A DNA stretch of 64,000 nucleotides from a virus. Taxonomy: Duplodnaviria; Heunggongvirae; Uroviricota; Caudoviricetes. Below the pieces are notes generated by a model. It was not told where the DNA came from. It ran no database searches and saw only the letters and a program-made list of their open reading frames with translations. The DNA is taken from IMG/VR virus record IMGVR_UViG_3300035501_000173; one strand, 5' to 3'. Of the stretch, positions 3,001 through 64,000 are shown piece after piece (position 1 is the stretch's first letter; each line of letters starts with the position of its first letter). The position numbers were made by a program, and so were the translations under genes.

Positions 3001-6000
3001 ACTTTAGAAAGACAAAAGATTATAGACAAAATAATCAAAAGTCGTAATGATGATTTATAGGATCGAGCCATTGAAGCTGCTAAAAATCTAATTAAAGAAT
3101 TACAATTAAGAGCGCAACTTAAAGGTGATTCAATTGATATTGTGGAAAATTCATTCTATAATATTGATAAAGGTCACTTTGTTCCTAATTATGGTTTAGT
3201 TGATCAACTATACCGTTGGGGTAAAATTGATTAGGTTGCGGCAGAAAGTATGTTACCTACTGGATTACTGGCAACTTCACATAGTTATGGTGCAGAAGCT
3301 GGTAAAGAGCATTTGAAATTCTTTAAAGCTAAATCATTCCAAGTTGTATCTGATATACTTCAAGAAAATGGATATATCAACTTATTTGCACCTGATGGCA
3401 AAAGAATTCCTGGAGCATTACGTAAGTTAGGAAACAAGGAAATTGCGGGGACATTAGATGCGAAAAACGGTTTAGGAAAATGGTCACAAGGTGGAAAACT
3501 AGCTTTAGCAGCTATTCGTTATAGAGAACTTTATGAAGGTGGTATTAAAGAGAAAGCACAACAAATTACAGACCTTAATCAATTAAGTGATATAGGACTT
3601 GTTTAGCAAGCTTTTAAATTTATTAAGTATCTTAATTCTTATAAGTACGGTGTTGTAACGGGACTTACGATAGACGAAGCGGCAAAAAGTATTAGTGATA
3701 ACTATTCTACTATGCGGGAATGCTATAGTTTAGATGATTATTTACGTAATCCTAAATTTAGTTTACTGACTTTAGAGAATGCTATTAATGACTACTTTAA
3801 ATGGTAGGATATTGAACGTGGTATAGCTAATTACAATTCTGATAATGGGAATGTAGATATGTATGCTGAGGTTCGCAAAAATGTTTTCGAGAACGATAAA
3901 ATAGAAATCGAGAAACAGTACAATAAGCGAATTGAGGATAGCAATACTAAATATGATAGTAATATTGCCAGCATAGATGAACAAATGGGGCTTATTACTA
4001 GTGTTGAAGAGTCTGAACGATCCGATGCTGAAAAAGAACGTCTTGTCGATTTAATTGCGGAAAAAGAGCAGTTAAAAGAAGCTAAAGCCGAAGCCGAAAA
4101 GAAATTAAAAGAATCACTTAAAGAAACAATTACTAAAGTAACTGACCGTTATAACAAAGTATTAGAGCAAGTTCCTGCTTACATAAAAGCTGTTTAGGCA
4201 AATCCTAATTTTGCCCATACCGCTGAAATAGTAATTAATCCTGATTTGGAAAAGTATAATGCTTTTAGTTTTCTGTATGGTCAAGAATATACTATAGCTA
4301 CAGTAGGAACGCACTTAAACCATCCTGGTATGAAAAATAAGGATGATTTAAAAGCTTTTGAAAGTCTTTCTTGGGCACAGCAAGTAAAACGTAATGTATC
4401 TTTAACCGCTGCTAAACATTTATATTCTTTAAACTCTTTAAATGGTTTTGGAACTTATTGTAAAATTGCACAGATAGTTTCTGAATCTGATGCAGTTTAT
4501 AATCTTACAGGAGCATAGGATGAAATGCTTAATGATGATGGTGCTAACTACACTAATGGTGTTACTCACCGTCTTGAAAATTATTCATTAGGTAGTGACG
4601 CTGTAGGAGTTGATAAAAAGAACTTTTTCCACATGGAAGATGGTGCTTCTGGTACTGGATTTATTGGCAAGAATGCAACTTTCGTAGGTACGAATTTACG
4701 TATCAGAAACTCTAAGGCCTATAGATTATAGAATTTCCAAATGCTTCGAGGAGCTGTAGGTTACTTAAATCCTTACTTAACTAATGGTGGTTTAAATATT
4801 ACAGAAAGCTTTGAAACTTATTACGATAGTAATACTAGAAAGTGGGAGTTCTCTAAAATGAACTACGAGGACTTTGATTATAAAATTCCCACGTCTTATA
4901 AGCCACATATTTAGTATGAAGTTTAGCTTGAGGATGGTTCTTGGACTGCAGCTAATGGGCTATTACAAGGTTATAATGTTCGTGTAATAGGAGATTCTAT
5001 TAAATTTAAGGATGGTTATACAACTTTTAAATTCTCTAATGTATCTTAGATTGATTCTACTGGAGAGGTTAAATCATTGCCTAATGCGGCAAGCTTTAAT
5101 TTTAGAGTTAAATTGGATAATGTACACGATATTTGGGAATTTTTTGGTGGTGCTTATTCTGGAAAAGCTAAAGAACAGGTTATAAATGGAGATTTGATAT
5201 TAACAATGGATGAAAATAGTTATGATGAATCTTCATTTGATTTAACTACATGGGTTGTAAATAATGTAGGAAAACGAAGAGAAGGTGTTGGTATGGATGT
5301 TAAAGTAGAATCACAAACGCAAGTAGACCAATACTTAAAAGATTCTATGATACATTATTTATCTTCCATTGAAACTATTAAATAGGGTTAGAATAAAATC
5401 AATAAGCGTTCTGATATACGAAATGAAAACTATATTCCATTATTTATGGAAATGGATATGCACGATGCAGGAGTGCAATTAAATGCAGAACACCATTCCG
5501 ATGATTCAGTTCTTTCCATGATGACTTAGGTTTTAAATGCCTTAGGAGCTAGAGGTTATACTTCTTAGGAAGCAGATAAAACTTATCAAGCTTTGCAAGG
5601 TCTTACTAATGCTGCATTGTAGGAATACATTGATTATTCAAGAGCTGGTGATTCGCCACAAAAACGTCAACACTTAGAGAATTTCATAGCACATATAATT
5701 GGTGATACTATTCAAGCTAATAGTACTTTAGATGAAGGTACTTTAGCTGGTGCTTTAATGCACCAAGCATAGAAGTTATTAAGTCGTAATAAGAACTTTA
5801 AATTTGAAGAAGTTCGTTAGTACTTACCTATTGATGATCCAGCCTTACTTAGAAATATGATTTCTAAATTAGCTTCTGGGTTAACAAAAAGATGTATTCG
5901 TGTTAAATTCCCAGGGTCTATGGATGTCATGTCCCCGTCAAACTCTATCTATAGATTATATGACGGTAAAATGTTATCCGAGTATAATGGAGATTTAACA

Positions 6001-32213: not shown

Positions 32214-33305
32214 CATTTATGTTATCCTAAAGACTCTTTATTCTTTAGTTCTGCAGTTTCATTAGTTATATCTGCAGGTCGGACTATATCTTCTCCAACA
32301 ATATTTATAATTTGTTGGAGCAGGGCACTCGTGGTAGCATTACTATCCTCGCTAAGGACTCGGCTACTAGTCTCTGAACCTTCAAGAGTATTACTACTCA
32401 AGCTTGGCTGCTGATTGTCCACCTCTGGAGTTTCCAGCAATTCACCCTGTTTTAAGACGCCAATTATCGCTTTATATTTTTCAGATCGTTCATGTGCTTT
32501 AGTATTATGGTATGTAGTATGTTCAGAACGTGTTAGTATTTGAAGATTTTCTAAACGATTGTCTGTTTTTATTTCATTTATATGATGCACATCATATTCA
32601 TCTTTTAGAACAATCCATCCATTAACATTCTCAAAATACTTAGGATCAAACTTATCATGATTTCTTTCAATTACTAATCTATGCTGTCTAACTCTAGATC
32701 CTTGAACACTTTTATCACAGGGTTTTGGATGTCCTGGACAATACTCTAACACGTAACCTAAATTAGAAATTGTTTCTTTACCCTTAAAACTTGCATTTTT
32801 ATCACCAGTAAGTCCATATTGATGATTATTTTCTCCTAAATATGTAGTTTCTCTTAATTTGTTACTACATTCTTTACTACAACAAATTTGCGTTTTAACT
32901 TTTTTTATTCTACTAGGTTTCGCATAGAATTGGTTACCGCAAATAGGGCAAGTACAATTTAACTCAGTCTTTTTTCTAAATAAAGCTGAGCAAGTAGTGC
33001 TACAACATTGATAGGTCTTTGCACGACTCGGAGTAACGTATTCTATTTTACCACAATAAGCACATATTACTTCTATTTTATCTACAGCATTCTTTTCATT
33101 CGGTTTTCCTTTACTGTGTTCATCCGAACATTGTTTACAACAATATTTTCGATGAGCACTTTTCTTTCCTAAGAAAGTTTTTCCACAATTTAAACAAATA
33201 TATTCTACCATACTAATTTTTTTAATATGGTTAAATATAGACAATTTTATTGGAATAACCTAATAAAAATAATAAATTGTGTAGTAACTGTTAATATATA
33301 ATTTT
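32214..33305 (-). mobile_element. Group I intron (~1,092 nt) interrupting dut and carrying an HNH homing endonuclease ORF.
   Basis: dUTPase is split exactly inside motif 3 (…TPGCIDA | DYRGE…). Exon 1 ends in U (GCU), the insert ends in G, and the internal ORF is in a different frame. A stop follows AKIIY immediately after the junction. Confidence 0.6.
32222..33244 (-). CDS. HNH homing endonuclease with N-terminal Cys-rich zinc-ribbon repeats, encoded within the intron.
   Basis: HNH motif HHINEIKTDNRLENLQILTRSEHTTYHN. There are multiple CxxC pairs at the N-terminus. Confidence 0.75.
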   Translation of the reverse strand: MSIFNHIKKISMVEYICLNCGKTFLGKKSAHRKYCCKQCSDEHSKGKPNEKNAVDKIEVICAYCGKIEYVTPSRAKTYQCCSTTCSALFRKKTELNCTCPICGNQFYAKPSRIKKVKTQICCSKECSNKLRETTYLGENNHQYGLTGDKNASFKGKETISNLGYVLEYCPGHPKPCDKSVQGSRVRQHRLVIERNHDKFDPKYFENVNGWIVLKDEYDVHHINEIKTDNRLENLQILTRSEHTTYHNTKAHERSEKYKAIIGVLKQGELLETPEVDNQQPSLSSNTLEGSETSSRVLSEDSNATTSALLQQIINIVGEDIVRPADITNETAELKNKESLG

Positions 33306-33635
33306 AGCGTCTATACAACCTGGCGTGTTAAGAACAGTTATACCGTGTTTAAGAGCTAATCCGCTACGAGGTCTTACTTTTATTTCATAACCTTCTGGAA
33401 TTGCAACGAATAAACCAGTAGGAATAAGTGCTCTACCTCCGGGACGGATAACCACAGCACCACCTTCTGTATAAAATTGATTATCTAAGATACAATCAAC
33501 TCCTTTAACATTAAGTATTCCATGAATATCTGCTCGCACATCCATACCAGCAGAACCATCGGTTTCATAACTAGGAAGTGGATTATTCCATTGTTCATCA
33601 TAATATTGCTTTTGCTTTACTTTTACTTCTACCAT
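33306..33635 (-). CDS. dut: dUTPase, exon 1 (motifs 1-3: [38 protein letters not shown]).
   Basis: N-terminal dUTPase motifs. The track ORF 33291..33635 reads 15 nt into the intron before its stop. Confidence 0.7.
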
Positions 33636-39146: not shown

Positions 39147-39659
39147 TTAACATTTAAATTCAACAATTTCTCCACTTTCTAAAGTTGCAGGTACATCTAT
39201 CAGCCTTTGATTACTTGAACCTCTAAAAGGGAGTGATACATCTCTACTATTTAATTCAAATTCCCCATCCACTAGAACATCTATATTGCATAATATTATA
39301 TGCCAATTAGACATTTTAAATATATGCTCAAATGTAAATCCTGTATATACCCAAATATCTTTATTAGGAAATCTTTTTTTAAGTTCTACTAAAAGATCTT
39401 CTAATTCTTGCTGATATTGAGAATTATATAACTTAATAGGCTCTCCTCCAGATAATGTTATACCTTTAATATAAGGTAATTCCAGAATTCTAAATAATTG
39501 TTCTTTAGTTTCTTCTGTAAAAGGTTTTCCATTATCTTCAATCCACGATTCTGGATTATGACACCCTATACAATGATGCGGACACCCAGCAACCCAAAGA
39601 GTTACTCGGCATCCGCATCCGTTATTAATATCAGGATAAGTTATTTTAAGATAGTTCAT
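39147..39659 (-). CDS. nrdG: Anaerobic ribonucleotide reductase activating enzyme (radical SAM).
   Basis: Cysteine cluster VAGCPHHCIGCHNPESW, typical of NrdG. Confidence 0.85.
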   Translation of the reverse strand: MNYLKITYPDINNGCGCRVTLWVAGCPHHCIGCHNPESWIEDNGKPFTEETKEQLFRILELPYIKGITLSGGEPIKLYNSQYQQELEDLLVELKKRFPNKDIWVYTGFTFEHIFKMSNWHIILCNIDVLVDGEFELNSRDVSLPFRGSSNQRLIDVPATLESGEIVEFKC

Positions 39660-39846
39660 AGTCGTGCTCTTCTACGTATTCTTTCATACCTTGTATAACA
39701 GTTTCTGACATAAAAGTTTGCCCTACTAACAAGCCATGTAAAGCTTCTAGTATATCAGTAACTGAACAATCTTCGTAAGCACTTTCCCATGAAAACTTAT
39801 TACTACCTATTTCTAGTGTTAATTTAGTCTTTCTATCCTCGTTCAT
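39646..39846 (-). CDS. Hypothetical protein.
   Basis: ORF of 66 aa with an ATGA overlap with nrdD. Confidence 0.4.
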   Translation of the reverse strand: MNEDRKTKLTLEIGSNKFSWESAYEDCSVTDILEALHGLLVGQTFMSETVIQGMKEYVEEHDYELS

Positions 39847-42800
39847 AGTTCTTTTATATGTTTAACTCGTTGTTCGACCTCCTGTTGCTTACCAACGTTA
39901 AATGACGTCTTGTAGTCTCCGGTTAAATAACCTGTTACACGGCGTAATCGCTTGATATTTTTACTACCACACATAGGACAAGTATCATTCAATTCATCAA
40001 TATAACCACAGTCTTGACAAGAATCATTTGGTACATTAATGGCAAAGTATGGAATATCATGATCCATTGCATAATTAACAATCTCTTCAATAGCTTCTGG
40101 ATTATGCTTAGTAGAAGCAGGTAATTCAACATAAGTTATACAACCTGCACTACTGAAACCAGTAAGTTGTGATTCAATTTCAATTTTCTCAAATGGAGTA
40201 CATTCATGCCATACAGGTACGTGCATACTATTAGTAAAGAAATCACGTTCTGTAATTCCTGGAACTTCACCAAATTGCTTCTTAAATTTCTGCATTGCTG
40301 TGTAACACAAATTTTCAGCAGGAGTATAATAAACACCAAAATTAAGTTTATAAGCTTCTTTGAATTCACTGCACCTCTTCTTAAAGAGAGCTTCTAATTC
40401 TTTAGCTTTATCCATAATTTCTGAATCAGTATGGTCTTTACCGAAAATAATTCTCAAAGCTTCTGATAATCCTAATTGACCAATAGCTAAAGTACCATGT
40501 TTTAATGCTGAACGAATACCTTCTTCAGGTTTATATCCATACATTACATTATTTTGATACATAAACTTAGCTGATGCAGCATCTTGACTACATATCCAAT
40601 CAAATCGTTCAATTAGCATATCTTTTGCTTCATGAATCTTAGTATCCAACAATTCAATAAATTTATTCCATACTAAATCCTTGATATTTATATCTGCATT
40701 ATCCATATTAGATATAGCTTGCAGTTTAGAATTCATTGCAAGTGTAGGAAGTATGATTGTAACAGGACAGATATTACCTCTACCATCTTTAAGTTGACCA
40801 AAACCATTAATATCCCAGCCATTCGCTGTCCTGCATCCCATTGTACTAAAATAAGTGCGAGGATCGTTTATATCATACCCTTCATTACCAGACCAATCTA
40901 CATTGGCATAATTAGGGTATAACCTAAGACTCGTAACCTTAGTAGCTTCTTGGAATATATCATAATTCGGATCTCCAGGTTTTCGATTAACACCTTTCAT
41001 TAATTGAACGATACAGCACGGAAAAATCGGAGTGCTATGATGGCTACCAATACCATTCTTACTTACTTCAAGTAAAGCTAGACTAATAAGACGTCCTTCA
41101 GGTTGTGTACAAGTACCATAATTAATAGAAGTGAATGGTAATTGATTACCACTTCTACTTTGTAAAGTATTTAAATTATGATACATACCTTCAACAGCTT
41201 GATGAATTTCTCGTTTAGTCATATCCAAAGCATATTCATAAGAATTGGGATGCTCTTTATACAAACTATCCTCTATAGACAAATCTGTTTGATCATACTT
41301 CTCATTACGAATATGGTCAATATACTTCAATCCAGTTCTGTAGTGCTTATTAAAAGATAGTCTTACATAAGGAACCATAGTCCAATCTAGATGAGTTGCA
41401 GACACACCACCAAATTGTTGTAAACTTTGTACTTGGAATATTACAGCTAATAATTGAAATGCTGTATTAACACTCTTAGCAGGTCTAACATCAGTTTGCT
41501 TTAGCTTAAACCCGTTAGTAAGTAAGTCGTCTACTGGTATGCTCAAACAGTTTCCTGTTACCATACATCCAGCCAAAGTAAAACTGTGAGTTTCTGGAGC
41601 TTCAACACACCAAGTTACTTGTACAGATCCAGCCGTTATTTTATCTAACCGCCATGGTTTATTTTCTTGCTGTTTAACACATAGTTGAAAATCATAATAA
41701 GTAACATCTTCTTTGTAATTAGTAGATTTTACATGCTCTCTTTTCGACCAAACATGAAACCCTGCAAGAGGTGCGGCAAATTCAATAAATTCTGCTAATC
41801 TACTATCAGTTGTAGAAATAGTATTATTTGCTTTACACCCATCTGCTGAAAAATAGCCTAAGAAAATACTAGCAATAGCATTTTTATCTAGAATATTCCA
41901 AAATTTACCTTCAAGAAAATTTTGTTTATAAGATCCATTACCTCTAGTATGAAGAGTAATATCTCCATTACTATGATGTTGTCGAATACTATAACCAGCT
42001 TTTAAGAAATTACCCAAGTATTCTACTTTATCGGAACATAGTCTTACATTCATTCCACTGTTTGTAATTCTACTTTTATCTTTAGAATACATAAAGTAAT
42101 CACAACCATCGCCTAATACAAATCCAAAACACCATAAAGTATTGTCTAATATAAAATCAGTTGTACTTACAGGCGTTAATATTAGTTTATCACCAACTTG
42201 TATATTATCAGTAATATCCCCATTACTTAAAATCCATCTATGATTTCTAGTACAGGTGACAGTTTTCTTAGTAATTCCAGCACTAAACTCTAAAGTGTAC
42301 ATTTTTTGTTTCTCATATTGATGTACCGTAGCAAATTCCCAATCTCCATTTTTATTTAGAATTTCTACAGGTTGACCGTCTGTAAAACTGTCAAAAGTTC
42401 TTACACCTCTAGAAGTTACAAACTTAGTATCATGGCTATAACAGTTGTGCATCCCCACAGCGTAAGAATCCAAATCATGAATGTATATTTCATTATTTTC
42501 ATGATTATGCTTAGCCATTTCAGACATACAATAATTAAGAGCATAATCTTTAGTTACAACTCTACCTGCTTCACCAATACGTCCACCAAATGAATGCTCG
42601 TCAATATTAGCATTTTGATTTTTTACATTAGAAGCTTCAAGTTTAGATTTAATGCCTTTAATGAGTTTATCTTTTTCAGCACGAAGCATCTTACGTTCTT
42701 CTCTATAAAGAATATAAGCTTTAGCTACATCTGGAAAATCATAATCCATTAAAAGCTCTTCAACCTGATCTTGTATATCCTCAATATTAATCTCATCCCA

Positions 42801-42941
42801 AGTTTGTACTTCATTAGTTATTTCACTAATAACTTTAGAAGCATCTTCGTATCCACACTCTTTAAATGCTGCTGAAATCGCATTTATAATTTTACTCTTA
42901 TCAAATTCAGCTAATGTACCGTCTCTTTTTGTTACTTTCAT
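39843..42941 (-). CDS. nrdD: Anaerobic (class III) ribonucleoside-triphosphate reductase with an N-terminal ATP-cone. It contains a 298-aa intein.
   Basis: ATP-cone sequence at the N-terminus. C-terminal zinc ribbon CQDCGY…CPMCG and glycyl-radical motif RVTGYL. Total length is 1,032 aa, or 734 aa without the intein. Confidence 0.85.
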   Translation of the reverse strand: MKVTKRDGTLAEFDKSKIINAISAAFKECGYEDASKVISEITNEVQTWDEINIEDIQDQVEELLMDYDFPDVAKAYILYREERKMLRAEKDKLIKGIKSKLEASNVKNQNANIDEHSFGGRIGEAGRVVTKDYALNYCMSEMAKHNHENNEIYIHDLDSYAVGMHNCYSHDTKFVTSRGVRTFDSFTDGQPVEILNKNGDWEFATVHQYEKQKMYTLEFSAGITKKTVTCTRNHRWILSNGDITDNIQVGDKLILTPVSTTDFILDNTLWCFGFVLGDGCDYFMYSKDKSRITNSGMNVRLCSDKVEYLGNFLKAGYSIRQHHSNGDITLHTRGNGSYKQNFLEGKFWNILDKNAIASIFLGYFSADGCKANNTISTTDSRLAEFIEFAAPLAGFHVWSKREHVKSTNYKEDVTYYDFQLCVKQQENKPWRLDKITAGSVQVTWCVEAPETHSFTLAGCMVTGNCLSIPVDDLLTNGFKLKQTDVRPAKSVNTAFQLLAVIFQVQSLQQFGGVSATHLDWTMVPYVRLSFNKHYRTGLKYIDHIRNEKYDQTDLSIEDSLYKEHPNSYEYALDMTKREIHQAVEGMYHNLNTLQSRSGNQLPFTSINYGTCTQPEGRLISLALLEVSKNGIGSHHSTPIFPCCIVQLMKGVNRKPGDPNYDIFQEATKVTSLRLYPNYANVDWSGNEGYDINDPRTYFSTMGCRTANGWDINGFGQLKDGRGNICPVTIILPTLAMNSKLQAISNMDNADINIKDLVWNKFIELLDTKIHEAKDMLIERFDWICSQDAASAKFMYQNNVMYGYKPEEGIRSALKHGTLAIGQLGLSEALRIIFGKDHTDSEIMDKAKELEALFKKRCSEFKEAYKLNFGVYYTPAENLCYTAMQKFKKQFGEVPGITERDFFTNSMHVPVWHECTPFEKIEIESQLTGFSSAGCITYVELPASTKHNPEAIEEIVNYAMDHDIPYFAINVPNDSCQDCGYIDELNDTCPMCGSKNIKRLRRVTGYLTGDYKTSFNVGKQQEVEQRVKHIKEL
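41550..42443 (-). mobile_element. Intein with a LAGLIDADG homing endonuclease domain, inserted in NrdD at aa 167-464.
   Basis: Begins with block A-like CYSHDTKF after the extein sequence AVGMHN. Ends with block G-like THSFTLAGCMVTGN followed by the +1 Cys. Two LAGLIDADG-like motifs are present: FGFVLGDGCDYF and LGYFSADGCKA. Confidence 0.7.
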
Positions 42942-61694: not shown

Positions 61695-61766
61695 TTGAAT
61701 ACAGAGGAGTCGAACCTCTACTAGTAGAACCAAAATCTACTGTGCTAGCCATTACACAAGTATTCA
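61695..61766 (-). tRNA. tRNA-Gln (anticodon UUG).
   Basis: Manual cloverleaf: acceptor TGAATAC/GTATTCA, D-arm GTGT…GCAC, anticodon stem GTAGA/TCTAC with loop TTTTGGT (anticodon TTG), T-arm AGAGG-TTCGACT-CCTCT. CCA is not encoded. Confidence 0.7.
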
Positions 61767-63017: not shown

Positions 63018-64000
63018 ATCTAAAAATTAATTTAATTAAAGCAAGCATACAGCATAAATACAAGGCTTATAAAAATTATAAGCATTTGTACAATATGCTT
63101 TCACAGCTTTCTTCGCAAAATTTAATACTCTAGTTGTCATAAAAATTCTTTGAATTTAACAATTAACATGGCTATCATTTGAGATAGTCTTTTATCTAAC
63201 CTAGGGAATTTTGTACCGCTAACAGGGAACGATCCTGTGTTTAAAGAATGAAAATCTTTTGTCCTGACCTCTAGACGATAGCGGCTTAGTGGCTTACCTT
63301 TGCAGATAAGCCCCACCTTTTACCAGTTATGCTGTTGGCAAGCACCAGTTATTCTTGTTGAAAACTGACAAAAAAGTCGGCAGTAGTTTTTTGTAGATAA
63401 ACCTGCGAAAACATTTAAGGAATTCGATTATATATTTGATCTTCGAACTCATCATAATATTTGTCCTTACATGGACTATAAGACTCTCTATTAAATGTTT
63501 GATTTCTTCTATTCTTGTGTGAAGAATGTTTACTTGAATGCTTGAGAGCTTCTTGTTTCTTCCTATTCCAACTCATTTTGTTCTTCTATTATATCTAGTT
63601 TTATTAAATCCACTAATACTTCTACTATCTTGGTAGTGAAAGCCTTTAGGCACATCTGTTACCTCTAAAAAATGATTTGCATAGATAGGTTGTGCATCAC
63701 AGCCTACACCTACACAGTAGCTTATTTTTTGAACCATAATAAATTTAAATAAAACTAACTATCTTCACAGACTGTTAGTTTAGTAACTAAAACAATAAAT
63801 ATATATAAAATGACAGTATATTTAGGTGGCACTGCCCCACACTCATTAATCGTAGTACTCCGAATTAACGCGAGTTTCTAATTACTCCTAAACACCTTTA
63901 TAGTTAACAAATACAAGGTTTCTCACACCCTTCATACTGTATTGTTACTAACAGCTAATTTCCCTGTGTTAGTCAGGATACTAGCAAATCACCTACTACT

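What the first reader, a model, noticed from the sequence alone, without database searches (positions are those of the whole stretch)
41550..42443. LAGLIDADG intein inside the anaerobic ribonucleotide reductase NrdD
NrdD is 1,032 aa. Residues 167-464 begin CYSHDTKF (Cys1, block A), contain two LAGLIDADG-like motifs (FGFVLGDGCDYF and LGYFSADGCKA) and end …HSFTLAGCMVTGN followed by Cys+1. These are the hallmark intein termini. Removal leaves a normal-size ATP-cone NrdD with its C-terminal glycyl-radical motif RVTGYL. Together with the dut intron and the freestanding homing endonuclease gene, three different homing-endonuclease families (HNH, LAGLIDADG, PD-(D/E)XK) occupy this replication module.
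Basis: partly seen in the sequence, partly recalled or inferred. Interest (0 to 1): 0.55.

Follow-up and report, generated by a model that had tools for sequence, protein, structure and literature searches.

The report
Mobile LAGLIDADG intein in phage NrdD
The anaerobic ribonucleotide reductase gene of this phage carries a real, apparently functional self-splicing intein with a homing endonuclease, placed just before an essential active-site cysteine, and its catalytic residues mix the hallmarks of two known splicing mechanisms.

Summary
NrdD (39843-42941, minus strand, 1032 aa) carries a 298-aa in-frame insert (41550-42443), CYSHDTKF...MVTGN|C. A related nrdD allele in two IMG/VR viral contigs has the same site empty (AAC|TGT), so the insert is exactly 894 nt. 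An AlphaFold model matches the intein endonucleases PI-PfuI and PI-SceI and the LAGLIDADG enzyme I-DmoI. The +1 Cys aligns with Prevotella copri NrdD Cys171 (T4 Cys79), the second cysteine needed for catalysis.

- The termini are not fully canonical. The penultimate residue is Gly, block F position 4 is Cys rather than Asp, and with Trp B:12 and Thr G:5 this forms the class 3 "WCT" triplet. Cys1 and Cys+1 are nevertheless retained.
- The signature C1-T-H-W-C-T-G-N occurs in 151 of 162 relatives.
- The family is large: 335 cluster representatives at E<=1e-30. It sits in NrdD, class II RNR, RecA and DnaB, almost always after an Asn.
- Two diverged members have Pro1, the class 3 prototype's state.
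- dN/dS is 0.14, and the intein is more conserved than its exteins, which indicates selection and lateral transfer.

It is a new member of a known kind. The splicing chemistry (class 1 or class 3) is unresolved.

The parts
39843..42941 (-). nrdD precursor gene (1032 codons plus stop): N-extein, intein, C-extein
   Evidence: ORF list and translation. Pfam ATP-cone, NRDD and Gly_radical hits; NCBIfam NrdD equivalogs split into two stretches.
42444..42941 (-). N-extein, aa 1-166 (ATP-cone plus start of the barrel), ending ...DSYAVGMHN; the -1 residue is Asn
   Evidence: The -1 residue is Asn in nearly all family members, including those in unrelated hosts.
41550..42443 (-). Intein, 298 aa (894 nt), Cys1 to Asn298
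   Evidence: Exact boundaries come from the empty site in L015/L016 (AAC|TGT). AF2 model pLDDT 81.9. Foldseek top hits PI-PfuI and PI-SceI.
42159..42443 (-). Hint (splicing) domain, N-terminal lobe, intein residues 1-95 (approximate inner boundary)
   Evidence: All-beta in the AF2 model. This part is retained in natural mini-intein alleles P0021 and P0023. It aligns to gp41-1, DnaE and DnaB mini-inteins.
42405..42443 (-). Block A, CYSHDTKFVTSRG, with Cys1 (codon 42441-42443)
   Evidence: Cys1 is present in 171 of 171 aligned relatives with that position. Pro1 occurs only in P0156 and P0163.
42234..42251 (-). Block B, TRNHRW: Thr B:7, His B:10, Trp B:12
   Evidence: The profile alignment to engineered gp41-1_WCT (6riz) places family H68 and W70 on its H-x-W. 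Counts: T 191/192, H 188/192, W 177/190.
41670..42158 (-). LAGLIDADG homing-endonuclease domain, intein residues about 96-258
   Evidence: Alpha/beta region of the model. Foldseek I-DmoI E about 6e-7 and PI-PfuI. dN/dS 0.13 against L008. The domain is deleted in mini-intein alleles.
42105..42137 (-). LAGLIDADG motif 1, LWCFGFVLGDG (catalytic Asp112)
   Evidence: aligned with the PI-PfuI and I-OnuI motifs. D112 is invariant in A2 and A4.
41838..41867 (-). LAGLIDADG motif 2, IFLGYFSADG (catalytic Asp201)
   Evidence: D201 is invariant in A2 and A4.
41550..41669 (-). Hint domain, C-terminal lobe, intein residues 259-298
41580..41612 (-). Block F, WCVEAPETHSF, with Cys279 at position F:4 where standard inteins have Asp
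   Evidence: Aligned to Cys107 of gp41-1_WCT and Asp107 of wild-type gp41-1. C in 164/167 relatives.
41547..41564 (-). Block G, MVTGN, plus Cys+1: Thr G:5, Gly G:6 (penultimate, not His), Asn G:7, Cys G:8
   Evidence: TGN in 135/147 and +1 Cys in 147/147 full-length relatives. The terminal Asn aligns with the DnaE intein terminal Asn.
39846..41549 (-). C-extein, aa 465-1032, starting with the active-site Cys and containing the finger-loop Cys (MGCR), the Zn-ribbon cysteines and RVTGYL
   Evidence: Cys+1 aligns with chain position 175 of 8p23, which is PcNrdD Cys171, and with T4 NrdD Cys79 (PMC11226230).
39147..39659 (-). nrdG, the radical-SAM activase of NrdD, immediately downstream (functional context)
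   Evidence: Pfam Fer4_12 1.2e-43 and Radical_SAM.

Best explanation
The segment is a functional, mobile intein: a Hint-fold protein-splicing domain with a two-motif LAGLIDADG homing endonuclease inserted in it.

It is translated as part of a 1032-aa NrdD precursor. [quoted passage not shown] That Cys corresponds to P. copri Cys171 and T4 Cys79. The precursor therefore cannot be an active reductase until the intein excises itself and joins ...GMHN to CLSIP..., giving a normal 734-aa NrdD. This step is inferred from the anatomy.

For the chemistry, I consider the most likely route to be:
1. An N-S acyl shift at the invariant Cys1.
2. Transfer of the N-extein to Cys+1.
3. Cyclisation of Asn298 without help from a penultimate His.
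4. An S-N shift that restores the peptide bond.

In this scheme Cys279 at block F position 4 replaces the usual Asp in the catalytic centre. The same residue set (Trp B:12, Cys F:4, Thr G:5) is the class 3 signature, so initiation or relay through Cys279 is a serious alternative, listed among the rivals.

At the DNA level, the endonuclease is inferred to cut intein-less nrdD alleles at or near the AAC|TGT junction during mixed infection. Repair then copies the intein in. This would explain its patchy presence among closely related alleles.
For: Shown:
- The 894-nt insertion is exact relative to an allele that is 88-97% identical (L015/L016). Flanks differ at 1 of 45 and 2 of 45 nt.
- It is absent from the closest annotated phage NrdD.
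- The spliced sequence aligns seamlessly to solved NrdDs.
- The AF2 model (pLDDT 81.9, pTM 0.75) matches PI-PfuI at E=7.5e-10, PI-SceI at about 5e-7 and I-DmoI at about 6e-7.
- The Hint-only family profile hits gp41-1, DnaE and DnaB mini-inteins, best E=2e-6.
- 8 of 18 family members hit Pfam Intein_splicing.
- All catalytic positions are conserved: C1-T-H-W-C-T-G-N in 151 of 162 relatives, and both LAGLIDADG Asp residues are invariant.
- Purifying selection acts on both domains: dN/dS is 0.14 overall and 0.13 for the endonuclease domain.
- The intein is more conserved than its host gene when compared with L008. Nucleotide identity is 80% against 68-72%, protein identity is 79% against 53%, and dS is 0.89 against 1.3 or more.
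- Natural mini-intein alleles have lost only the endonuclease domain.
- nrdG lies adjacent and is intact.
- Cys+1 is the second catalytic Cys (PMC11226230).

Precedent: a functional phage intein with a penultimate Gly is known (PMC5050341).
Against: - No splicing or cleavage experiment exists for any member of this family.
- The window sequence alone fails the Pfam and NCBIfam intein and LAGLIDADG thresholds.
- The penultimate His and the F:4 Asp, both helpers in standard class 1 chemistry, are missing.
- Grafting WCT onto a class 1 intein (gp41-1) gave mainly cleavage, not splicing (PMC7664689). A Cys1 plus WCT centre therefore does not automatically behave as class 1.
- The last 8 residues of the model have low confidence.
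Confidence: 0.9

Rival explanations
1. Same element, different chemistry: it splices by a class 3-type route. [quoted passage not shown] The N-extein is then passed to Cys+1, and Cys1 is dispensable, redundant or regulatory.
For: - The WCT triplet is complete and nearly invariant. Its positions were confirmed by alignment to the engineered gp41-1_WCT structure.
- WCT co-varies with class 3 chemistry (PMC2807308).
- WCT inteins that keep Ser1 or Cys1 exist, and MP-Catera Gp206 is treated as class 3 (PMC3196547). My recollection of Tori & Perler 2011 is that the N-terminal nucleophile was not required; the paper was not retrievable.
- Two diverged family members (P0156 and P0163, 48% identical) have Pro1, the state of the class 3 prototype MP-Be DnaB. 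They keep H, W, C, T/S, G, N, Cys+1 and the LAGLIDADG Asp residues.
Against: - Cys1 is invariant in at least 160 relatives that are as little as about 30% identical. This implies selection on it.
- Thr B:7 is also invariant, whereas the B:7 residue was not required in MP-Be DnaB.
- No solved class 3 intein sequence is hit by the family profile at E<=10. The structural match to class 3 Msm DnaB1 (E=4e-3) is no better than the match to class 1 Ssp DnaB.
- Class 1 inteins with Cys at F:4 exist and are polyphyletic. The unrelated c-st NrdD intein also has Cys at F:4 together with ...THN.
- Only 2 Pro1 sequences were found among about 190 examined.
Confidence: 0.4
2. The splicing domain works, but the endonuclease is no longer an active homing enzyme. 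The intein would then be a vertically inherited passenger.
For: Endonuclease decay is the usual fate of inteins, and mini-intein alleles exist in this family. The window HE domain does not reach the Pfam LAGLIDADG_3 cut-off.
Against: Both catalytic Asp residues are invariant. dN/dS of the HE domain is 0.13. The intein is more similar than its exteins to the copy in L008. Presence or absence varies among alleles that are 88-97% identical.
Confidence: 0.2
3. The intein is splicing-dead, so this nrdD is a pseudogene and the phage relies on host RNR.
For: Non-canonical G:6 (Gly) and F:4 (Cys). Inactive inteins in prophage remnants are documented, for example Arsp-FB24 Arth_1007 (PMC3196547).
Against: The 1032-codon frame is intact, and all essential NrdD motifs and nrdG are present. 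The same non-canonical residues are conserved in hundreds of clusters under purifying selection. That conservation is not expected for a dead element.
Confidence: 0.05
4. The insert is a native, non-excised accessory domain of this NrdD lineage.
For: None beyond the uninterrupted reading frame.
Against: It is absent from close and distant NrdDs at exactly this point. It splits the first barrel strand next to a catalytic Cys. It has an intein-endonuclease fold. The same module occurs in RecA, DnaB and class II RNR.
Confidence: 0.01

Closest known systems
PI-PfuI (Pyrococcus furiosus ribonucleotide reductase intein, PDB 1dq3) and PI-SceI (yeast VMA1 intein)
   Same: Two-domain architecture with a Hint splicing domain and an inserted double-motif LAGLIDADG endonuclease. 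These are the best structural matches (E=7.5e-10 and about 5e-7), and 1dq3 is the best, though non-significant, PDB sequence hit. The PI-PfuI host is also an RNR.
   Different: Only 10-17% identity. The window intein is much smaller (298 aa against 454) and lacks the extra DNA-recognition region. It has Gly rather than the canonical penultimate His, Cys rather than the canonical Asp at F:4, and Trp at B:12. Its host is class III rather than class II RNR.
Clostridium phage c-st / D-1873 NrdD intein (reported in PMC3653736)
   Same: A LAGLIDADG-type intein inside a phage anaerobic RNR, placed immediately before an active-site Cys that serves as +1. It also has Cys at F:4 and Thr at G:5.
   Different: A different site: it precedes the finger-loop thiyl Cys, 'SC|C...THN|CRL'. 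A different NrdD subclass (Thermotoga-like). It scores only 14.7 bits against the family profile. It has a canonical penultimate His and no Trp at B:12.
Class 3 inteins (prototype mycobacteriophage Bethlehem DnaB; also Msm/Mch DnaB1, and MP-Catera Gp206, which keeps an N-terminal nucleophile)
   Same: Trp B:12, Cys F:4 and Thr G:5 at the same spacing (H68/W70 here against H65/W67). Phage-borne. Some hosts of the wider family are DnaB and RecA-type ATPases. Rare Pro1 relatives exist.
   Different: Cys1 is invariant, +1 is Cys rather than Ser or Thr, and the penultimate residue is Gly rather than His. The main hosts are RNRs, not helicases. No detectable sequence affinity to solved class 3 inteins. 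The branched intermediate at F:4 has not been tested.
gp41-1_WCT (engineered class 1 mini-intein carrying a grafted WCT motif, PDB 6riz)
   Same: Best PDB sequence hit of the Hint-only family profile (E=2e-6). W and C align to the family's W70 and C279.
   Different: It is an artificial construct with Cys1 mutated to Ala, and it mostly cleaves rather than splices (PMC7664689). The natural family keeps Cys1 and is evidently maintained by selection.
Mycobacteriophage Bethlehem RDF (gp51) intein
   Same: A phage LAGLIDADG intein with a natural penultimate Gly that splices. Changing Gly to His increased precursor accumulation (PMC5050341).
   Different: An unrelated host protein. It scores only 10.7 bits against the family profile. 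It is treated as class 1 in PMC5050341; its B:12 and F:4 residues were not read here.

Membership tests
Intein (Hint-fold protein-splicing element) | In-frame insertion that is absent from orthologues at the same position | tested here: met
   The site is empty in L015/L016, AAC|TGT, in TR-TP1, and in T4, P. copri and S. thermophilus NrdD.
Intein (Hint-fold protein-splicing element) | Hint fold of the terminal segments | tested here: met
   Foldseek matches PI-PfuI, PI-SceI, Ssp DnaB, Msm DnaB1 and a BIL domain. Profile hits to mini-inteins, best E=2e-6. Pfam Intein_splicing, Hint_2 or Hom_end_hint hits in family members. The window sequence alone is below threshold.
Intein (Hint-fold protein-splicing element) | N-terminal Cys/Ser, block B TxxH, C-terminal Asn, and a +1 Cys/Ser/Thr | tested here: met
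   Cys1, T65-x-x-H68, Asn298 and Cys+1. These are conserved family-wide.
Intein (Hint-fold protein-splicing element) | Penultimate His (G:6) | tested here: not met
   Gly297 in the window, and G in 149/160 relatives. This feature is known to be dispensable in phage inteins (PMC5050341), so it does not exclude membership.
Intein (Hint-fold protein-splicing element) | Actual excision and extein ligation | not testable with these tools
   Requires expression followed by western blotting or mass spectrometry.
LAGLIDADG homing endonuclease (single-chain, two motifs) | Two LAGLIDADG helices, each ending in a catalytic acidic residue | tested here: met
   LWCFGFVLGDG with Asp112 and IFLGYFSADG with Asp201. 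Both are invariant in A2 and A4. They align to the PI-PfuI and I-OnuI motifs.
LAGLIDADG homing endonuclease (single-chain, two motifs) | Alpha-beta-beta-alpha-beta-beta-alpha fold, and a family profile match | tested here: inconclusive
   The fold criterion is met: I-DmoI at E about 6e-7, TM about 0.55 normalised to the target. The Pfam LAGLIDADG_3 score is only 12.9 bits against a cut-off of 22.5.
LAGLIDADG homing endonuclease (single-chain, two motifs) | Site-specific cleavage of the intein-less allele | not testable with these tools
   Support is indirect only: presence/absence polymorphism, and an intein more conserved than its exteins.
Class 3 inteins | WCT triplet: Trp B:12, Cys F:4, Thr G:5 | tested here: met
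   W70, C279 and T296. Positions were verified by alignment to gp41-1_WCT and by counting back from the terminal Asn. The definition is taken from PMC2807308 and PMC3196547.
Class 3 inteins | No N-terminal Cys/Ser/Thr nucleophile (original definition) | tested here: not met
   Cys1 is invariant. Exceptions that retain a nucleophile are known. Pro1 occurs only in relatives P0156 and P0163.
Class 3 inteins | Ser or Thr at +1 (typical) | tested here: not met
   Cys+1 in 147/147. Bvi IcmO is the one cited class 3 exception.
Class 3 inteins | Membership of the monophyletic class 3 clade | tested here: inconclusive
   No solved class 3 sequence is hit at E<=10 by the Hint profile. The fold match to 6bs8 is no better than to class 1 6frg. 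The InBase block phylogeny could not be run.
Class 3 inteins | [quoted passage not shown] | not testable with these tools
   This is a biochemical criterion.
Class 1 (standard) inteins | Cys1/Ser1 together with Asp at F:4 and His at G:6 as helpers | tested here: inconclusive
   Cys1 is present and invariant. F:4 is Cys and G:6 is Gly. Class 1 inteins with Cys at F:4 are documented.
NrdD (class III ribonucleotide reductase), host protein | ATP-cone, ten-stranded barrel with two catalytic Cys residues, Zn-ribbon, C-terminal glycyl-radical motif, and a partner activase | tested here: met
   Pfam and NCBIfam hits. Full-length alignment to 8p23 at E=2.6e-122. nrdG is adjacent.

The most novel reading that the evidence does not exclude
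The window intein belongs to a large clade of phage LAGLIDADG inteins that I did not find described in the held literature. The clade has at least 335 clusters (at 50% identity) with E<=1e-30. Its hosts are class III and class II RNRs, RecA, DnaB and others. Members combine the full class 3 catalytic triplet (WCT) with an invariant Cys1, Cys+1, a -1 Asn and a penultimate Gly, and the clade has produced Pro1 derivatives.

[quoted passage not shown] That would bear directly on whether class 3 arose by divergence from a phage class 1 intein or by convergence. With three thiols in one catalytic centre, it could also make maturation of the oxygen-sensitive NrdD dependent on reducing conditions.
Probability: 0.35. 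Interest if true: 0.7.

Novelty: new member of a known kind. Interest (0 to 1): 0.5.

Why it matters
For annotation: this intein family is missed by standard profiles. The same-site inteins in Morganella phage MP1, Vibrio phage PVo5, Klebsiella phage FBKp34 and Vibrio phage V6Aob are annotated simply as NrdD or as a hypothetical protein. The MP1 and PVo5 genome papers never mention an intein. Long 'NrdD' genes in phages should therefore be re-read.

For biology: the element sits on a catalytic cysteine of an enzyme that only works anaerobically. Splicing is thus an obligatory maturation step that could be condition-dependent.

For mechanism: the family offers a natural set of sequences for testing how class 3 splicing relates to class 1. 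It includes Cys1 plus WCT members, Pro1 plus WCT members, full-length inteins and mini-inteins. The origin of class 3 is an open question (PMC7664689 argues for convergence; PMC3196547 and Tori & Perler argue for a phage class 1 ancestor).

For tools: compact 298-aa and roughly 132-138-aa inteins with Cys+1 and a tolerated penultimate Gly may be useful in protein engineering.

Tried and rejected
- Pfam and NCBIfam scans of the insert alone gave no significant intein or LAGLIDADG hit. A PDB sequence search gave only E=0.14 to PI-PfuI.
- Megablast of the gene against phage records found nothing. An exact-protein look-up of the window NrdD found nothing on record.
- The word-indexed homologue search suggested a tiny family of 7, then 23 proteins. 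This was misleading, because the exhaustive profile search found thousands.
- Rfam did not recognise the gaps that split nrdD in L008 and TR-TP1 as introns. It also did not recognise the 294-nt insert in L015.
- I tried to recover the class 3 prototype MP-Be DnaB intein from the Bethlehem record for a direct comparison. The part of the record I fetched (25000-52250) shows a 273-aa DnaB-like gene without an intein. Only the RDF intein scored, and weakly.
- The Tori & Perler 2011 paper (PMC3133030) is not held, so its result is cited from other papers and from memory.
- I tried to show that the class II RNR insertion site is the structural homologue of the NrdD site. The alignment to L. leichmannii RTPR (1l1l) does not cover the junction, so this is inconclusive.
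- Literature searches for T4 'Cys79' found nothing. The equivalent P. copri Cys171 statement was used instead.
- The native-domain and pseudogene readings were considered and rejected (see rivals).
Full report
**1. The observation**

The minus-strand ORF 39843..42941 encodes a 1032-aa protein. Residues 167-464 (nt 41550..42443) read CYSHDTKFVTSRG...WCVEAPETHSFTLAGCMVTGN and are followed by Cys465.

Deleting the 298 residues leaves 734 aa. These carry an ATP-cone (1-84), the NRDD domain and a glycyl-radical domain. The Pfam and NCBIfam NrdD profiles are broken into two stretches exactly at the insert. The spliced sequence aligns end to end with the solved NrdDs of Prevotella copri (8p23, E=2.6e-122), Streptococcus thermophilus (9d3x) and phage T4 (1h78), with no gap at the junction.

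The insert on its own is not recognised by Pfam or NCBIfam (LAGLIDADG_3 E=0.13). Its best PDB sequence hit is a non-significant E=0.14 to PI-PfuI. The motif reading therefore needed independent support.

**2. The insert is an insertion, with exact boundaries**

The closest annotated phage NrdD is in Thomasclavelia phage TR-TP1/TP2 (64% identity). It reads ...DSYAVGMHNCLSIPFD... with nothing in between.

More decisively, two IMG/VR viral contigs (L015 and L016) carry an nrdD allele that is 88-97% identical at the DNA level. In them the site is empty:
- Window: ...GGGATGCACAAC | [894 nt] | TGTTTGAGCATACCAGTAGA...
- L015: ...GGGATGCACAAC|TGTTTGAGCATACCAGTAGA...

The flanks differ at 1 of 45 nt on one side and 2 of 45 nt on the other. 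Because Asn-Cys occurs at both junctions, the boundary is formally ambiguous by two residues. Only Cys1...Asn298 fits intein chemistry.

**3. Fold**

An AlphaFold2 model built on the family alignment has pLDDT 81.9 and pTM 0.75. It shows beta-rich ends and an alpha/beta middle.

Foldseek against the PDB ranks the matches as follows:
- PI-PfuI, an intein endonuclease from an archaeal RNR: E=7.5e-10.
- PI-SceI: about 5e-7.
- Many I-DmoI entries (single-chain, two-motif LAGLIDADG): about 6e-7.
- Mini-inteins and a BIL domain: 3e-3 to 6e-3.

A profile of the splicing domain alone was built from 18 family members, including two natural mini-inteins. It hits solved gp41-1, DnaE and DnaB mini-inteins (best E=2e-6). 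Eight of the 18 members individually hit Pfam Intein_splicing.

**4. Insertion site**

Counting along the alignments, Cys+1 corresponds to chain position 175 of 8p23. The glycyl residue shows that chain numbering is offset by 4 from the paper's numbering, so this is P. copri Cys171. The same residue corresponds to T4 Cys79.

[quoted passage not shown] The intein therefore splits the active site and uses a catalytic Cys as its +1 nucleophile, which is the classic intein location.

The previously reported phage NrdD intein, in Clostridium phage c-st (PMC3653736), is different in several ways:
- It lies before the other catalytic Cys, on the finger loop: 'SC|C...THN|CRL'.
- It is in a Thermotoga-type NrdD.
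- It scores only 14.7 bits against this family's profile.

**5. The family**

The word-indexed searches found 7 and then 23 relatives, nearly all in NrdD.

tblastn found the same intein at the same site in six distinct phage records (a seventh row is the RefSeq copy of MP1): Morganella phage MP1 (T4-like), Klebsiella phage FBKp34, Vibrio phages PVo5 and V6Aob, and two gut-virome contigs. None of them is annotated as containing an intein. The MP1 and PVo5 genome papers never use the word.

The exhaustive profile search changed the picture. It returned 2323 cluster representatives at E<=1e-3, 1357 at E<=1e-10 and 335 at E<=1e-30.

Among the best 150 plus the earlier hits, the hosts are:
- NrdD: about 90.
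- RTPR-like class II RNR: about 48.
- Single cases in RecA, DnaB, ferredoxin-like proteins and unidentified proteins.

In almost every case the intein follows an Asn and precedes a Cys.

**6. Catalytic residues**

Across 162 complete rows, 151 share this set:
- Cys1
- Thr B:7
- His B:10
- Trp B:12
- Cys F:4
- Thr G:5
- Gly G:6
- Asn G:7

The block positions are not assigned by eye alone. The family profile aligns its H-x-W and W-C onto H63-x-W65 and Cys107 of the engineered gp41-1_WCT structure (6riz). It aligns onto F65 and Asp107 of wild-type gp41-1 with a weaker score.

Trp B:12, Cys F:4 and Thr G:5 make up the WCT triplet that defines class 3 inteins. In those, the block F Cys, not residue 1, attacks the N-terminal junction (PMC2807308, PMC3196547, PMC7664689).

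Unlike typical class 3 inteins, this family keeps Cys1 in 171 of 171 sequences and has Cys rather than Ser or Thr at +1.

Several precedents are relevant:
- WCT inteins with Ser1 or Cys1 exist, and MP-Catera Gp206 is treated as class 3.
- Class 1 inteins with Cys at F:4 also exist.
- A penultimate Gly occurs in a splicing-competent mycobacteriophage intein.

Two family members, P0156 and P0163, are 48% identical to each other and sit in class II RNRs. They have Pro at position 1, as does the class 3 prototype. They retain H, W, C, T/S, G, N, Cys+1 and both LAGLIDADG Asp residues. Cys to Pro needs two base changes, and the two sequences are far apart. I therefore read this as a persistent lineage that splices without Cys1. 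That is an inference.

On the other side, the family profile finds no solved class 3 intein at E<=10. The structural match to class 3 Msm DnaB1 is no better than the match to class 1 Ssp DnaB.

I conclude that the chemistry cannot be settled in silico. Invariance of Cys1 tips me slightly towards class 1 initiation with an unusual F:4 Cys. I give a class 3-type or relay route about 0.4.

**7. Function and mobility**

The comparison is between the window and its nearest intein relative, P0001 on JGI contig L008.

| Measure | Intein | Flanking exteins |
|---|---|---|
| Protein identity | 79% | 53% (N-extein) |
| DNA identity | 80% | 68-72% |
| dS | 0.89 | about 1.3 (N side); saturated (C side) |

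dN/dS by intein segment:

| Segment | dN/dS |
|---|---|
| Whole intein | 0.14 |
| Hint N lobe | 0.19 |
| Endonuclease domain | 0.13 |
| Hint C lobe | 0.10 |

Both activities are therefore under purifying selection, and the intein is younger than the divergence of its two host genes.

This fits the homing-endonuclease life cycle when taken with two further observations. The site is empty in L015 and L016. Natural mini-intein alleles have lost only the endonuclease domain: P0023 against full-length P0014 in near-identical exteins, and P0021.

nrdG, the activase, is intact immediately downstream. This argues that the phage needs a working NrdD.

**8. Comparison with what is known, and novelty**

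By architecture and fold this is an ordinary LAGLIDADG intein in an RNR, a host class long known as an intein refuge. For the window element I therefore file it as a new member of a known kind.

The following appear not to be documented in the literature I could search:
- This insertion site in NrdD.
- The size and host range of the family.
- The near-invariant combination -1 Asn, Cys1, WCT, Gly-Asn, Cys+1.

InBase itself could not be consulted.

A redox-gating idea is speculation. Precedent exists for a class 3 intein whose F:4 Cys forms a reversible disulfide (PMC6195587), and the host enzyme here is oxygen-sensitive.

**9.

A group I intron (Rfam 70.3 bits) with an HNH ORF interrupts the dUTPase gene at about 31.2-33.6 kb. 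I did not examine the PD-(D/E)XK free-standing endonuclease.

Noticed in passing
window 32222-33635 (-), Rfam hit at 32251-32536: The dUTPase gene is interrupted. A 114-aa 5' exon (33291-33635, Pfam dUTPase) is followed by a 340-aa HNH_3 ORF (32222-33244) and a group I intron core (RF00028, 70.3 bits).
   Followed up: partly
L015/L016 (IMGVR_UViG_3300035522_000061 and 3300043108_000047), L015:4212-4505: The intein-less sister nrdD allele carries a 294-nt insertion immediately before the finger-loop (thiyl-radical) Cys codon, ...FSTMG|[294 nt]|CR.... This is the same site that the c-st intein occupies. Rfam does not recognise the insert at E<=0.01. The window has the intein but not this insert, and the sister allele has the reverse.
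   Followed up: partly
L015:7406-7636: A group I intron (RF00028, 67 bits) lies downstream of nrdD/nrdG in the sister contig. It is 78% identical over 79 nt to the window's dut intron core. The shared modules are in a different order in the two phages.
   Followed up: no
L008 (P0001 locus) 4700-4959 and 5656-5860; also P0002, P0008, P0009, P0011, P0013-P0017: In many relatives the NrdD ORF stops a few codons after '...QSLQQFG', about 50 aa past the intein, on long contigs. In L008 the gene continues in two further ORFs after gaps of 260 and 205 nt. These are probably small introns, but Rfam finds nothing at its gathering scores (the evalue threshold was not tried on L008). In these phages nrdD carries an intein plus at least two other interruptions. 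The window gene has only the intein.
   Followed up: partly
P0156 (L017) and P0163: Two diverged members of the same intein family, in RTPR-like class II RNRs, begin with Pro instead of Cys ('QFN|PGRRTTKF', 'QFN|PLKKTEKF'). They keep H-x-W, W-C and (T/S)-G-N|C, which is the class 3 prototype signature.
   Followed up: partly
P0021; P0023 (L012) versus P0014: These are natural mini-intein alleles of about 132-138 aa that lack the whole LAGLIDADG domain but keep all splicing residues. P0023 and full-length P0014 sit in nearly identical exteins. The L012 nrdD is further broken by a NUMOD4 ORF and an HNH ORF.
   Followed up: partly
P0007 (L011:1584-2501); similar-length hits P0080, P0135, P0168: P0007 is a free-standing 305-aa ORF homologous to the whole intein. 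It lacks Cys1, has Lys in place of His B:10, has lost both LAGLIDADG Asp residues and has no TGN end. It lies next to PhoH and ClpP genes and is not inside any host gene. It could be a domesticated or decaying intein derivative.
   Followed up: partly
P0087 (1812 aa): This protein seems to consist of head-to-tail mini-inteins of this family with no extein between them (...TGN|CFAGDTKI...THN|CFSGDTEF...TGN|CLSGDTEF...). There are 8 matched stretches.
   Followed up: no
family-wide: P0055 (RecA), P0126 (DnaB), P0115, P0139, P0143, P0149 and others: The residue before the intein is Asn in almost every host, including unrelated proteins. In RecA the junction is 'WKHN|C...|CSVRL', where, from my memory of the E. 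coli RecA sequence, the intein-less protein reads '...FYA SVRL...'. This suggests either a -1 Asn requirement of the splicing centre or co-conversion of flanks during invasion.
   Followed up: no
window 39646-39846 (-): A 66-aa ORF with no Pfam hit lies between nrdD and nrdG. Klebsiella phage FBKp34 and Morganella phage MP1 also have a small hypothetical gene in this position.
   Followed up: no
window 61695-61766 and 63214-63285 (-): Two tRNA genes (Rfam RF00005).
   Followed up: no
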